A DNA stretch of 64,000 bases from Escherichia phage vB_Eco_OMNI12: the sequence record OL362041.1; one strand, written 5' to 3'. The position numbers and the translations under genes are program-made. Every line of letters starts with the position of its first letter. Position 1 is the stretch's first letter. Under the pieces are notes generated by a model, which saw nothing but the letters and a program-made list of their open reading frames with translations, was not told the DNA's origin and searched no databases. Positions 1-15,503 of this stretch are shown one piece after another.

Positions 1-2068
<2,068 letters not shown>

Positions 2069-7677: not shown

Positions 7678-8487
7678 ATGCTTAAAGAACAACTGATTGC
7701 CGAAGCGCAGAAAATTGATGCTTCCGTTGCTCTTGATAGTATTTTCGAATCAGTTAATATTTCTCCGGAAGCAAAAGAAACTTTCGGCACTGTATTCGAA
7801 GCTACCGTCAAGCAGCACGCCGTTAAATTAGCTGAATCTCATATCGCTAAAATTGCTGAAAAAGCAGAAGAAGAAGTAGAAAAAAATAAAGAAGAAGCAG
7901 AAGAAAAAGCTGAGAAGAAAATAGCTGAGCAAGCTTCTAAATTCCTTGACCATCTTGCAAAAGAATGGCTCGCTGAAAATAAATTAGCAGTTGATAAAGG
8001 CATCAAAGCCGAACTGTTTGAATCCATGCTTGGTGGATTAAAAGAGCTCTTTGTTGAACACAACGTTGTTGTTCCAGAAGAATCAGTTGATATTGTAGCT
8101 GAAATGGAAGAAGAGCTGCAAGAACATAAAGAAGAATCAGCTCGTCTGTTCGAAGAACTCAATAAGCGTGACGCATATATCAATTATGTGCAGCGTGAAG
8201 TGGCATTGAGCGAAAGTACTAAAGATCTGACTGAGTCTCAAAAAGAAAAAGTCTCTGCTCTGGTCGAAGGTATGGATTATTCAGATGCATTCTCAAGTAA
8301 ATTGAGTGCAATCGTAGAAATGGTGAAGAAATCTAATAAAGATGAAAGCACTATTACTGAGAGTATAAATACTCCTGATACTGAAGCAGCCGGACTGAAT
8401 TTCGTCACTGAAGCTGTAGAAGATAAAGCTGCACCTGGTGCAGAAGATATTGTAAGTGTATATGCGAAAGTCGCATCTCGTTTCTAA
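7678..8487 (+). CDS. 22: prohead scaffolding core protein
   Basis: 269 aa; Glu/Lys-rich coiled-coil-like sequence; immediately upstream of major capsid gene. Confidence 0.85.
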   Translation: MLKEQLIAEAQKIDASVALDSIFESVNISPEAKETFGTVFEATVKQHAVKLAESHIAKIAEKAEEEVEKNKEEAEEKAEKKIAEQASKFLDHLAKEWLAENKLAVDKGIKAELFESMLGGLKELFVEHNVVVPEESVDIVAEMEEELQEHKEESARLFEELNKRDAYINYVQREVALSESTKDLTESQKEKVSALVEGMDYSDAFSSKLSAIVEMVKKSNKDESTITESINTPDTEAAGLNFVTEAVEDKAAPGAEDIVSVYAKVASRF

Positions 8488-12763: not shown

Positions 12764-12961
12764 TCACCTTTTATTAATATGTCTTTTTCTATAGACAACT
12801 TTTTCTCGAGTTTCAAATTTATTCTTAGCAGTCATAGCTCGAGCCCATAATACAGCCACTTCTTTCGCCTGTAAGTTTAATTCACGAGCAATTTCAATGA
12901 ATGACTTTCCAGACTCATGAAGAGTAAACACCACAACCTCAGTTCTCATAATCAATCTCAT
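12764..12961 (-). CDS. hypothetical small protein, possible helix-turn-helix (24.3-like position)
   Basis: 65 aa ORF; segment KSFIEIARELNLQAKEV resembles an HTH. Confidence 0.45.
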   Translation of the reverse strand: MRLIMRTEVVVFTLHESGKSFIEIARELNLQAKEVAVLWARAMTAKNKFETREKVVYRKRHINKR

Positions 12962-13030
12962 GTTATCGAGTTGATGCCATTATATACATCATTTTCTGAG
13001 TATGTTTTGTGTGCTTTCAAAATGAAGAAA

Positions 13031-13045
13031 GGGGCCGAAGCCCCT
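13031..13045 (-). terminator. terminator hairpin downstream of hoc
   Basis: GGGGC-CGAA-GCCCC; U-rich on minus-strand transcript. Confidence 0.55.
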
Positions 13046-13056
13046 TATGATTATGA

Positions 13057-14763
13057 TTATGGATAGGTATAGATGATACCAGTTTCTAAAGCAGTTTTAT
13101 GAATGATGTATCCATTGCGTGATTCTTGAACATCAACTTCTGGATAGTCTTTAATCATCTTCTGAAGAGTGTAACGATGCAGGTAGTATTTACTATCTGG
13201 GTCGTCAGTTTTCCAATCTTTACCTTCTTCGGTCATTTTTTGGATTTCATCCATAACCCACCAACCGCACCAGATATAAGCTGAAGTACGATGTGGAAGA
13301 GGATGAACATAAGGCAATTCACCTTCTGGTTCTGGAGCAACTTTATCAGTTACCTGAACTTGACCTTCTGCTGTAATAGTTTTGCTATCGTAATCAGTTG
13401 CAGTAACGACAGCAGTAACTTCAATAGTTTGACTTCCAACAGATGAGGTATCGACAGTATATACGTTAGTTGACCCTTCTACAGGAGAAGAATCTTTCTT
13501 CCATGAGTAAGTAATTTGTGCTTCTTCTGGAGCACCCGTAACATTAGCCGTAAATGTAGCCGAAGCATCTTGCTGAACGTTAATAGAAGGAGGAGTCAAT
13601 GTAACCTGTGGATTCATTGTTTTCTTATTAACAGTCAATGATACTTCATTAGAAGTAACTTCCTTTTCATTGTAATTTTCTGCAGTTACTTGCGCTACAC
13701 ACTTAACTGTTTTAGCTCCAACTGTGGTAGGAGTATAGTTAAATGTAGTAGTAGTTTCTCCATCGACCAGAGAACCGTCAACATACCACTGATACGTAGC
13801 AGACGCTCCTGGTGGCTGTGAATCCAAGGCAGCAGTAAATTGAACTGGGGTTCCAATTACTCCGGCAGCAGGATTAGCAGGAGTTACGGCTAACGTAGTT
13901 GTCTGTGTCTTCTTATTAACTGTTAATGATACTTCATTAGAAGTAACGCTTAGTGCATCATAATCTGTTGCTGTTACTTGCGCTACGCATTTAATTCTTT
14001 TTACTCCACTTGTAGTTGGAGTATAGCTAAATGTAGCAGAAGTCGCTTCACCAATTTGAGAATCATCTACATACCACTGATACGTAGCAGATGCCCCATC
14101 AGGTTGAGAAGCTAAGGCAGCAGTAAATTCAACGGCTGTTCCAATCACTCCAGCTGGAGGACTATCAGGAGTTACTGCCAAGGTAGTCGTCTGCGTCTTT
14201 TTATTAACAGTCAATGATACTTCATTAGAAGTAACGCTTAGTGCATCATAATCTGCCGCAGTTACTTGAGCTACACACTTGATTTTTTTAACTCCGCTTG
14301 TGTCAGGAGTGTAATTGAATGTAGCGTCAGTTGCTTCGTCTACAGGAGAACCGTCAACGTGCCATTGATACGTAGCGTTTGCACCTGATGGCTGTGAAGC
14401 TAAGGCAGCGGTAAATTCAATTGGAGTTCCAATCACTCCAGCATCAGGGCTACCAGGAGTTACTGCCAAAGTAGTTGTTTGTGTCTTATTTTGAACTGTG
14501 ATAGTTGTACTAATTTCAGCTGTTTCAGGTTCAGATTCTGCAACTTGATTGGTTGCAACTACTTTAATAGTCTTTTGACCGGCAGGTCCTTTTAGTACAT
14601 AACTAAAAGTTGCTGACGTTTCTTCCTGTGGAGCGTCGTCTACAGTCCAAGCATATGTAATAGGTCCATCTCCAGTTTGACCACTGGGTGTAGCAGTAAA
14701 CTGCTTAGTTTCATCAATAACCCCTGTCGGTGTTTTAGGAGTTATATCAACTGTAAAAGTCAT
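13057..14763 (-). CDS. hoc: highly immunogenic outer capsid protein Hoc, enlarged (five Ig-like modules plus capsid-binding C-terminal domain)
   Basis: 568 aa; repeated ~96 aa modules with conserved Trp/Cys Ig-like pattern; position rnlB-hoc-inh as in T4 (T4 Hoc recalled as 376 aa). Confidence 0.85.
   Translation of the reverse strand: MTFTVDITPKTPTGVIDETKQFTATPSGQTGDGPITYAWTVDDAPQEETSATFSYVLKGPAGQKTIKVVATNQVAESEPETAEISTTITVQNKTQTTTLAVTPGSPDAGVIGTPIEFTAALASQPSGANATYQWHVDGSPVDEATDATFNYTPDTSGVKKIKCVAQVTAADYDALSVTSNEVSLTVNKKTQTTTLAVTPDSPPAGVIGTAVEFTAALASQPDGASATYQWYVDDSQIGEATSATFSYTPTTSGVKRIKCVAQVTATDYDALSVTSNEVSLTVNKKTQTTTLAVTPANPAAGVIGTPVQFTAALDSQPPGASATYQWYVDGSLVDGETTTTFNYTPTTVGAKTVKCVAQVTAENYNEKEVTSNEVSLTVNKKTMNPQVTLTPPSINVQQDASATFTANVTGAPEEAQITYSWKKDSSPVEGSTNVYTVDTSSVGSQTIEVTAVVTATDYDSKTITAEGQVQVTDKVAPEPEGELPYVHPLPHRTSAYIWCGWWVMDEIQKMTEEGKDWKTDDPDSKYYLHRYTLQKMIKDYPEVDVQESRNGYIIHKTALETGIIYTYP
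13625..14488 (-). repeat. three tandem near-identical 288-bp coding repeats inside hoc
   Basis: Motif TTATTAACAGTCAATGATACTTCATTAGAAGTAAC recurs at 13625, 13913 and 14201. Confidence 0.85.
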
Positions 14764-14772
14764 AAGTTATCC

Positions 14773-15453
14773 TTATTTTAATGTTACGAAAGAAGAGTTG
14801 CGTGTTTCACGAATTAGAACTGATCCGTCACGGTTAATGTAATAAATTAAGCTAAATAAAGTTTGGTGTGCTGACGCATGTTCAAAACTAGTTGGGTGAG
14901 ATTTCCAATCAGGAGTTTCAGCAATCCATTGATAAATCCACCAAGGAACAGTACAGAATCCTGGATTTTTTCCAATCAACTGAAGATTCGGGCTAAAGTT
15001 TTCCGGAAGAGTAAATACAGACTGCTTTTCAGATTCAATAATCTCAGCTACAGCCTGTTCAAATTTTTCTTCAACAAATGGAGTATCTTCAATCAAAACA
15101 TCGGTATTTTCAGGAATTTTATCTGTTTCTACTACTTCAATTTTAATGTCAGATTTAACCGGAGAATCAATCAAAAGTGCTGCTTCTGGATTGACTTCTT
15201 CATCGTCATATTTTAACCCCTCTGCAGCATCAGCAGCATCAATTAAGTCTTTAATAGATAACCCATCAGTCTCCGGCATAGGTTCACTAGCGAGCTTCTG
15301 GAGAGCTTCTTCAATATCATTAACGATATTATCAAAAGATTTATTCTTTTTGACCTTTATACCAAACTGTTCAGCATATTCAGCTAATTTAGCTTTAGCT
15401 TCTTTATTATCATCAAGAGCCTTCAGCTCTGCAATATAATCTTTATCTATCAT
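14773..15453 (-). CDS. inh: inhibitor of prohead protease
   Basis: 226 aa acidic protein immediately downstream of hoc, T4 gene order. Confidence 0.6.
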   Translation of the reverse strand: MIDKDYIAELKALDDNKEAKAKLAEYAEQFGIKVKKNKSFDNIVNDIEEALQKLASEPMPETDGLSIKDLIDAADAAEGLKYDDEEVNPEAALLIDSPVKSDIKIEVVETDKIPENTDVLIEDTPFVEEKFEQAVAEIIESEKQSVFTLPENFSPNLQLIGKNPGFCTVPWWIYQWIAETPDWKSHPTSFEHASAHQTLFSLIYYINRDGSVLIRETRNSSFVTLK

Positions 15454-15466
15454 AATATTTCCTCAG

Positions 15467-15474
15467 TATAAATA
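15467..15474 (+). promoter_or_regulatory. late promoter TATAAATA upstream of uvsW
   Basis: Exact TATAAATA 30 nt before uvsW ATG. Confidence 0.6.
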
Positions 15475-15503
15475 TAGATATATTTATTACATGGTATTTA
15501 GAC

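What the first reader, a model, noticed from the sequence alone, without database searches (positions are those of the whole stretch)
13057..14763. Enlarged Hoc built by recent tandem duplication of an Ig-like module
hoc encodes 568 aa here, against 376 aa recalled for T4. Three consecutive ~96-aa Ig-like modules (NKKTQTTTLAVTP...SNEVSLTV) are encoded by near-identical 288-bp tandem repeats (motif at 13625, 13913, 14201). Nucleotide-level identity implies recent duplication, and such repeats can expand or contract by recombination, changing the length of the capsid surface fibre.
Basis: partly seen in the sequence, partly recalled or inferred. Interest (0 to 1): 0.6.

Follow-up and report, generated by a model that had tools for sequence, protein, structure and literature searches.

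The report
Five-Ig Hoc from old tandem modules
This T4-like phage carries a longer version of the capsid fibre protein Hoc with two extra immunoglobulin-like modules, but the modules are old and diverged, the same gene is already in public databases, and relatives carry one to four such modules, so it is an ordinary, known variant.

Summary
The gene is real. hoc lies at 13057-14763 on the minus strand and encodes 568 aa: five Ig-like modules plus the T4-type capsid-binding domain. Three 288-bp units sit in tandem at the stated positions. They are not near-identical: pairwise identity is 77-78% in nucleotides, 57-68% at third codon positions, and dS is 0.54-0.91. The same modules in other phages are 98-100% identical (dS 0-0.06), so the duplication long predates this phage. 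The exact protein is already in NCBI, and at least 12 sequenced Tequatrovirus phages share the architecture at 94-98.8% nucleotide identity. Hoc in this genus forms a ladder of 376, 472, 568 and 664 aa, built from four old module lineages (A-B-C-D) that almost always keep their order; the window has A-C-D. Alleles about 99% identical to the window's differ from it only by clean 288- or 576-bp in-register deletions or insertions with breakpoints in the conserved module ends. An extra Ig domain arising from an intragenic repeat was annotated for phage RB30 (AY101183), and variable Ig number in Hoc is published. Low interest.

The parts
13057..14763 (-). hoc coding sequence, 568 aa plus stop codon (head outer capsid / decoration fibre protein)
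   Evidence: ORF list. phmmer against PDB T4 Hoc 5vf3_Z gives E=2e-208. 98.8% nt identical to the annotated 'Hoc-like head decoration' gene of YUEEL01. Exact protein is UGC97620.1/WP_214667515.1.
14494..14763 (-). Ig-like domain 1 (aa 1-90), the distal N-terminal tip of the fibre
   Evidence: Domain split. Aligns to T4 Hoc residues 1-90. pLDDT 86-94. 34-37 identical positions when aligned with each middle module.
14206..14493 (-). Middle module M1 (aa 91-186), lineage A
   Evidence: 99.3% nt identical to the single middle module of UKE3-1 and to YUEEL01 M1. 78% identical to M2 and M3.
13918..14205 (-). Middle module M2 (aa 187-282), lineage C
   Evidence: 98.3% nt identical to YUEEL01 M2, 94.1% to FJ1 module 3 and 91% to T4's single middle module.
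13630..13917 (-). Middle module M3 (aa 283-378), lineage D
   Evidence: 100% nt identical in YUEEL01, U115, EC101, KMB26, ECML-123-2 and TOPO13. 99.3% identical over module nt 7-288 to the only middle module of fPS-65; 98.3% over all 288 nt.
13342..13629 (-). Ig-like domain 3 of T4 nomenclature (aa 379-474), here the fifth Ig module
   Evidence: Aligns to T4 Hoc residues 187-282. Pfam Ig_3 and I-set hits at aa 385-469. 100% nt identical in YUEEL01, U115, UKE3-1 and fPS-65.
13060..13341 (-). C-terminal capsid-binding domain (aa 475-568)
   Evidence: Nearly identical to T4 Hoc 281-376 and almost invariant across 28 aligned homologs, including the ESRNG motif. PMC10385173 defines this domain as the capsid anchor. 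It was poorly modelled here (pLDDT 39-59).
13019..13046 (-). Intrinsic-terminator-like hairpin AAGGGGC-TTCG-GCCCCTT followed by a T-rich tail, 11 nt after the hoc stop codon
   Evidence: Consensus scan. A terminator is annotated at the same place in the fPS-65 record.
14770..14775 (-). Shine-Dalgarno-like TAAGGA overlapping the inh stop codon, 6-7 nt upstream of the hoc ATG
   Evidence: Read directly from the sequence. The U115 record annotates a ribosome-binding site in the equivalent position.

Best explanation
This is the hoc gene of a Tequatrovirus (T4-like phage). It encodes a monomeric capsid decoration fibre made of five Ig-like modules in a row, followed by the conserved C-terminal domain that anchors it at the centre of each major-capsid-protein hexamer. 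The two modules it has beyond T4's Hoc are extra copies of T4 domain 2. They arose by tandem duplication long ago and now belong to distinct, long-lived module lineages, called A, B, C and D here. The window carries A-C-D. Across the genus, natural hoc alleles carry one to four of these modules, almost always in the order A<B<C<D. Alleles that are otherwise about 99% identical differ by exact 288- or 576-nt in-register indels whose breakpoints fall in the conserved module heads or tails. Module number is therefore changed by unequal, in-register homologous recombination. This is shown by comparison between genomes; the recombination machinery itself is inferred from the known high recombination activity of T4-type phages. 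The window's allele is as readily explained as a six-Ig (664-aa, A-B-C-D) allele that lost module B as it is by an expansion of a T4-like allele. Functionally (inferred), each module should add roughly 45 Å to the ~180 Å T4 fibre. That would place the N-terminal tip domain, which binds mucin fucose in a related phage, further from the capsid surface.
For: - Identity as Hoc. Synteny inh-hoc-24.3-24.2-rnlB.
- Old paralogs: 77-78% nt identity; dS 0.54-0.91, dN/dS 0.14-0.34.
- Orthologous modules elsewhere are 98-100% identical.
- Length ladder of 376, 472, 568 and 664 aa.
- Single-breakpoint relations to the window gene: U115 = window minus 288 nt (breakpoint hoc nt 508-551, 16 mismatches). UKE3-1 = window minus 576 nt (528-563, 14 mismatches). 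fPS-65 = window minus 576 nt (294-296, 13 mismatches).
- Window = FJ1 minus 288 nt (breakpoint 588-626, 96.6% identity); T4_ev151 = FJ1 minus 288 nt with a B-head/C-tail chimera.
- Module order is ascending in 3/3 four-module, 12/12 three-module and all but about 2 two-module alleles.
- No allele has paralogs more than 82/96 aa identical.
- Five confident beta-sandwich modules; fold matches to multi-Ig strings.
- Fibre length, anchor domain and variable Ig number: PMC10385173. [quoted passage not shown]
Against: - The direction of change (loss from a four-module array versus stepwise gain) cannot be decided from these data, because the same crossover mechanism produces both products.
- Two two-module alleles (P0025 B-B, P0036 C-B by core class) do not fit strict order.
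- Mosaic patches show additional gene conversion or allelic exchange that single-event models ignore (for example the slur03 module 3 head, and the clustered D1 differences to YUEEL01).
- The expected synonymous-site homogenisation at module boundaries was not significant.
- No functional measurement of fibre length or binding exists for the 568-aa form.
Confidence: 0.85

Rival explanations
1. One reading: the array was created by a recent tandem duplication or triplication in this phage's own lineage. The near-identical copies are therefore unstable and currently expanding or contracting.
For: Perfect 288-nt period, conserved reading frame and conserved module ends. Copy number does differ among close relatives.
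Against: Copies are only 77-78% identical, with dS 0.54-0.91. Each copy has a 98-100% identical ortholog in other phages. At least 12 phages share the architecture. No recent duplicate appears in 48 multi-module alleles.
Confidence: 0.03
2. Build-up from alleles: single-module hoc alleles diverged in different phages. Multi-module arrays were then assembled by out-of-register crossovers between co-infecting phages, so divergence between modules reflects allelic divergence rather than the age of the duplication. On this view the window's A-C-D is a recent assembly.
For: Single-module alleles of type A, B and D exist. hoc Ig domains are unusually divergent between phages (D1 and D3 84-93% versus about 98% for the neighbouring genome). 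T4-type phages recombine readily, and SegE homing next to hoc co-converts flanks (PMC2330249).
Against: No single-module allele has a clear lineage-C core among about 80 examined. A-only and D-only alleles share a 100%-identical D3 and about 99%-identical flanks with the A-C-D allele, which is simpler to explain as deletions from it. Module order is conserved. The first out-of-register join would have to use only the short NK(K)T microhomology at the D1/M and M/D3 junctions (read from the sequence).
Confidence: 0.1
3. Assembly artefact: the repeat count is wrong because short reads were mis-assembled across the repeats.
For: Tandem repeats are a classic source of assembly error.
Against: Copies differ at about 63 of 288 positions, so they are uniquely placeable. 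The same 1707-bp gene occurs in many independently sequenced phages from different countries. The exact protein occurs on 3 contigs.
Confidence: 0.01

Closest known systems
T4 Hoc (376 aa; NP_049793; PDB 5vf3, 8t1x and others)
   Same: Same gene position. N-terminal Ig domain 1, last Ig domain and C-terminal capsid-binding domain align end to end (window aa 1-189 to T4 1-189, and 369-568 to 177-376, E=2e-208).
   Different: T4 has one middle module, a lineage-B-core mosaic 91% nt identical to the window's M2. The window has three.
Hoc of Escherichia phage YUEEL01 and relatives (ECML-123-2, TOPO13, KMB26, EC101, ESh16/34/36, UGKSEcP1/2, ESh26, T4_ev151), 568-570 aa
   Same: Same five-Ig architecture with the same module lineages. 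94-98.8% nt identity over the full 1707 bp. YUEEL01 differs at 21 positions.
   Different: A few clustered substitutions in D1, the M2 tail and the C-terminal domain. T4_ev151 carries a B/C chimeric second module instead of C.
RB30 Hoc (472 aa; GenBank AY101183)
   Same: An extra Ig-like domain created by an intragenic 288-bp tandem repeat, explicitly annotated as such by the depositors.
   Different: One extra module rather than two. Overall about 88-90% nt identity.
664-aa Hoc of slur03/08/14, vB_EcoM_FJ1 and Shigella phage Sfk20
   Same: Same module lineages in the same order. The window equals FJ1 minus module B, with one breakpoint, at 96.6% identity.
   Different: Four middle modules (six Ig in all), so the window is not the longest form in the genus.
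Long Hoc-like fibres of other Straboviridae (e.g. Serratia phage Muldoon, 1174 aa, 10 Ig domains; PMC10385173)
   Same: A conserved C-terminal anchor plus a variable string of Ig-like domains.
   Different: Distant sequences with independent domain expansions. Outgroup loci here also show their own 280/377/472-aa ladder and an independent tandem pair.

Membership tests
Hoc (highly immunogenic outer capsid protein) of T4-type phages | C-terminal capsid-binding domain homologous to T4 Hoc residues 281-376, with the conserved Tyr/His/Trp-Trp and ESRNG positions | tested here: met
   alignment: window 472-568 versus T4 280-376, nearly identical, containing YVHPLPH, WCGWWV and QESRNG. These columns are invariant in 28 homologs. 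The feature definition comes from PMC10385173.
Hoc (highly immunogenic outer capsid protein) of T4-type phages | N-terminal string of Ig-like (PKD/I-set type) domains | tested here: met
   Pfam PKD E=6.9e-14, Ig_3 1e-8, Ig_2 and I-set. The AlphaFold model has five beta-sandwich blocks with pLDDT about 85-95. Foldseek hits are to multi-Ig chains.
Hoc (highly immunogenic outer capsid protein) of T4-type phages | Conserved genomic position between inh and 24.3/24.2/rnlB | tested here: met
   Window ORFs match the gene order and gene lengths of T4 and YUEEL01.
Hoc (highly immunogenic outer capsid protein) of T4-type phages | One copy bound at the centre of each gp23 hexamer on the mature capsid | not testable with these tools
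   Requires cryo-EM or biochemistry of this phage.
Hoc variants enlarged by an intragenic tandem repeat of an Ig module (RB30 type) | In-frame head-to-tail repeats of 288 bp (96 aa) corresponding to T4 domain 2 | tested here: met
Recent (evolutionarily young) tandem duplication | Near-identical nucleotide sequence between copies, with synonymous divergence no greater than between orthologs | tested here: not met
   77-78% nt identity. dS 0.54-0.91 between copies versus 0-0.06 between orthologs.
Contingency-type or rapidly variable repeat locus (copy number changing within a population) | Copy-number heterogeneity within a single phage stock, or very frequent change between near-identical genomes | tested here: inconclusive
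   Between-genome changes exist among about 99%-identical alleles. Within-population variation cannot be measured from one assembled window, and no allele shows a fresh duplicate.

The most novel reading that the evidence does not exclude
The middle of Tequatrovirus hoc is a collinear four-cassette array (A-B-C-D), and natural isolates carry nearly every ordered subset of it. On this reading, recurrent in-register loss and exchange of cassettes is an adaptive way of tuning fibre length from roughly 180 to 315 Å, and with it the reach of the glycan-binding tip domain, to different mucosal or environmental niches. The exchange may be helped by SegE homing next door. This would be comparable to repeat-number variation in bacterial surface adhesins. 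The ladder and the ordered-subset pattern do not seem to be described in the papers I could search, although the general fact of variable Ig number is published.
Probability: 0.25. Interest if true: 0.45.

Novelty: already known. Interest (0 to 1): 0.2.

Why it matters
Hoc mediates phage adherence to mucus and is the main display platform for T4 nanoparticle vaccines, so fibre length and domain content have practical relevance. For this window, however, the gene is a database-known allele of a known polymorphic family. The useful results here are corrective. The copies are old, not recent. The window's form is an intermediate rung of a 376/472/568/664-aa ladder. The visible recent dynamics are in-register loss or reassortment of old modules rather than new duplication.

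Tried and rejected
- **Boundary homogenisation.** I tested whether module ends are homogenised at synonymous sites, as recombination 'handles' would be. The result was not significant. The longest run of identical codons (7) was reached in 5058 of 20000 shuffles, and the tail region had 8/10 identical codons against 21/43 in the core.
- **T4_ev151 as a lab-evolved T4.** If true, this would have shown real-time expansion. It was rejected because its hoc D1 is only 83% identical to T4.
- **Full-length fold search against PDB.** It returned only generic multi-Ig or beta-sandwich chains with low TM-scores. This was uninformative beyond fold class, and the C-terminal domain of the model had low confidence.
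- **IMG/VR scan.** It gave only 4 close Tequatrovirus loci, so the census relied on the phage and protein collections.
- **Literature searches.** I found no paper describing the 568-aa form or the ordered-cassette ladder, only general statements. Absence from this library is not proof of absence.
- **Terminator-like hairpin inside hoc** (14440-14422). I regard it as a chance match.

Full report
**Observation.** The window has an ORF at 13057..14763 on the minus strand that encodes 568 aa. Tandem Repeats Finder reports a single strong array inside it, at 13618-14487, with period 288, 3.0 copies, 79% matches and score 1040. The repeat finder gives three in-register copies spaced 288 nt apart at 78% identity. 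In the protein, the motifs TTLAVTP (aa 97, 193, 289) and EVSLTV (aa 181, 277, 373) recur every 96 residues. I divided the protein into D1 (1-90), M1 (91-186), M2 (187-282), M3 (283-378), D3 (379-474) and a C-terminal domain (475-568). The claim of 'near-identical' repeats is not. M1/M2/M3 share 78.1, 78.1 and 77.4% of nucleotides and 81, 72 and 73% of residues. Third codon positions are only 57-68% identical, and the longest exact shared runs are 43, 30 and 23 nt.

**What the gene is.** The window is a Tequatrovirus (T4-like) genome segment, about 98% identical over 25 kb to many sequenced phages. The protein matches T4 Hoc in the PDB (5vf3_Z and others) at E=2e-208. The match comes in two blocks, window 1-189 to T4 1-189 and window 369-568 to T4 177-376, so the difference is an insertion of two modules in the middle. 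Pfam finds PKD, Ig_3, Ig_2 and I-set domains. An AlphaFold model built from a 28-sequence alignment shows five confident beta-sandwich blocks (pLDDT about 85-95 over residues 1-470) and a poorly modelled C-terminal domain. Foldseek returns multi-Ig chains. Gene order (inh, hoc, 24.3, 24.2, rnlB on the minus strand, uvsW opposite) matches T4 and YUEEL01. A GC-rich hairpin followed by a T-rich tail sits 11 nt after the stop codon, where the fPS-65 record annotates a terminator.

**Age of the copies.** Nei-Gojobori estimates between the three modules give dS 0.54-0.91, dN 0.13-0.18 and dN/dS 0.14-0.34, which indicates old copies under purifying selection. Each module, by contrast, has near-identical counterparts in other phages:
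- M3 is 100% identical in nucleotides in YUEEL01, U115, EC101, KMB26, ECML-123-2 and TOPO13. It is 99.3% identical over module nt 7-288 in fPS-65.
- M1 is 99.3% identical in YUEEL01 and UKE3-1.
- M2 is 98.3% identical in YUEEL01.

Ortholog dS is 0-0.06. The duplication therefore long predates this phage. Among 48 multi-module Hoc proteins retrieved, the most similar pair of modules within any one protein is 82/96 aa, and the median of the per-protein maxima is 76/96. No sampled allele carries a fresh duplicate.

**How common the architecture is.** The full 1707-bp gene is matched end to end at 94-98.8% identity in 13 phage records, representing 12 phages. The exact protein is in NCBI as UGC97620.1/WP_214667515.1 and occurs on three contigs. 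Hoc homologs fall into discrete length classes of 376, 472 and 568-570 aa. A 664-aa class occurs in slur03/08/14, vB_EcoM_FJ1 and Shigella phage Sfk20, which were isolated in the UK, Portugal and India. In a systematic sample of 60 of the 678 matching phage records, about 29 had a 1131-bp hoc, about 20 a 1419-bp hoc and 2 a 1707-bp hoc. The window's form is a minority allele and an intermediate rung. It is neither the norm nor the extreme.

**Mechanism of length change.** I painted every middle module against the window's three modules and against the four modules of FJ1, labelled A, B, C and D. This shows four long-lived module lineages, and the window is A-C-D. All three four-module alleles are A-B-C-D. 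All twelve three-module alleles are ordered subsets (A-C-D, A-B-D or A-B-C). Two-module alleles are A-B, A-C, A-D or B-D, with about two exceptions. Single-module alleles have a core of mostly B (the T4 type), and some have A or D.

At the nucleotide level, three shorter genes each equal the window gene with one in-register deletion and about 98.8% identity elsewhere:
- U115: minus 288 nt, breakpoint at hoc nt 508-551, 16 mismatches.
- UKE3-1: minus 576 nt, breakpoint 528-563, 14 mismatches.
- fPS-65: minus 576 nt, breakpoint 294-296, 13 mismatches.

Conversely, the window equals FJ1 minus module B, with a breakpoint at 588-626 and 96.6% identity. T4_ev151 equals FJ1 minus 288 nt and carries a B-head/C-tail chimera, which is the signature of a deletion crossover. 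Breakpoints lie in the conserved module heads (TQTTTLAVTP) and tails (VTSNEVSLTV).

I conclude that module number changes by unequal, in-register homologous recombination among old modules. The comparative pattern is shown. The involvement of the phage recombination system is inferred from what is known about T4-type phages. The direction (loss versus gain) is not resolved. The conserved order, the absence of fresh duplicates, and A-only and D-only alleles sharing a 100%-identical D3 with the A-C-D allele all favour loss or reassortment as the visible recent process. Most outgroup genera have a Hoc of about 375 aa, so the original expansion by tandem duplication is probably genuine but ancient.

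**Function (inferred).** T4 Hoc is a 180-Å linear fibre of four domains (PMC10385173). By proportion, the 568-aa form should be about 270 Å long. [quoted passage not shown] The extra middle modules may therefore act mainly as spacers that extend the reach of the tip. This was not tested.

**Comparison with what is known.** GenBank AY101183 (phage RB30) annotates an 'intragenic repeat [that] led to appearance of additional immunoglobulin-like domain' in hoc. PMC10385173 reports 650 Hoc homologs with strings of one to ten Ig-like domains. [quoted passage not shown] The feature is thus already known. The ordered four-cassette ladder and the single-breakpoint relations are a tidy description that I did not find in the searchable literature. 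They are an elaboration, not a new kind of system.

**Negative and side results.**
- Synonymous-site homogenisation at module boundaries was not significant.
- T4_ev151 is not a T4 derivative at hoc.
- Outgroup Tevenvirinae show their own 280/377/472-aa ladder, a 907-aa form and an independent tandem pair (72/90 aa identical in L010).
- The window lacks the segE homing-endonuclease gene that T4 carries between inh and uvsW. FJ1 has an annotated homing endonuclease and T4_ev151 an unannotated 618-bp ORF at the same position. SegE homing co-converts flanking DNA (PMC2330249), so it could contribute to hoc allele exchange. This is speculative.

**Verdict.** This is a database-known allele of a known polymorphic family. 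Interest 0.2.

Noticed in passing
L028 867-2861 (slur03), L031 867-2861 (FJ1), L030 867-2861 (Sfk20): A 664-aa Hoc class with four middle modules (six Ig-like domains) exists in independent isolates from the UK, Portugal and India. It contains all four module lineages in the order A-B-C-D.
   Followed up: yes
window 15454-15503: Only a 50-nt spacer separates inh from uvsW. T4 carries the segE homing-endonuclease gene here; FJ1 has an annotated homing endonuclease and T4_ev151 an unannotated 618-bp ORF at the same position. According to PMC2330249, this intergenic site is the SegE target in segE-less phages and homing co-converts flanking DNA. That could move hoc alleles between phages.
   Followed up: partly
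L009-L025 (IMG/VR outgroup Tevenvirinae loci), e.g. L010 1501-2916, L018 46-2769: More distant Hoc genes (35-58% identical) show their own length ladder of about 280, 377 and 472 aa, plus a 907-aa ORF. L010 has an independent tandem Ig pair that is 72/90 aa identical at offset 94. Module gain or loss is therefore a general property of Hoc.
   Followed up: partly
proteins P0057 (BYEP02, 439 aa), P0132 (vB_Eco_EL, 511 aa), P0024 (468 aa), P0074 (360 aa): Irregular Hoc lengths occur in databases. BYEP02 ends in an unrelated C-terminus, which looks like a frameshift that would remove the capsid anchor. vB_Eco_EL has an odd N-terminus. These could be sequencing or annotation errors, or real disrupted hoc genes.
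   Followed up: no
window 12764-12961 (-): The small ORF downstream of hoc (24.3-like, 65 aa here) varies in annotated length among close relatives: 171 bp in T4, 186 in YUEEL01, 198 here and in UKE3-1 and fPS-65, 204 in U115 and slur03, and 216 in Sfk20.
   Followed up: no
window 7858-7929: A short GAA-rich tandem repeat (periods 24 and 14, TRF score 55). It is the only other tandem repeat in the 64-kb window.
   Followed up: no
window 14422-14440 (-): A terminator-like hairpin match inside module M1 of hoc. It is probably a chance consensus hit.
   Followed up: no
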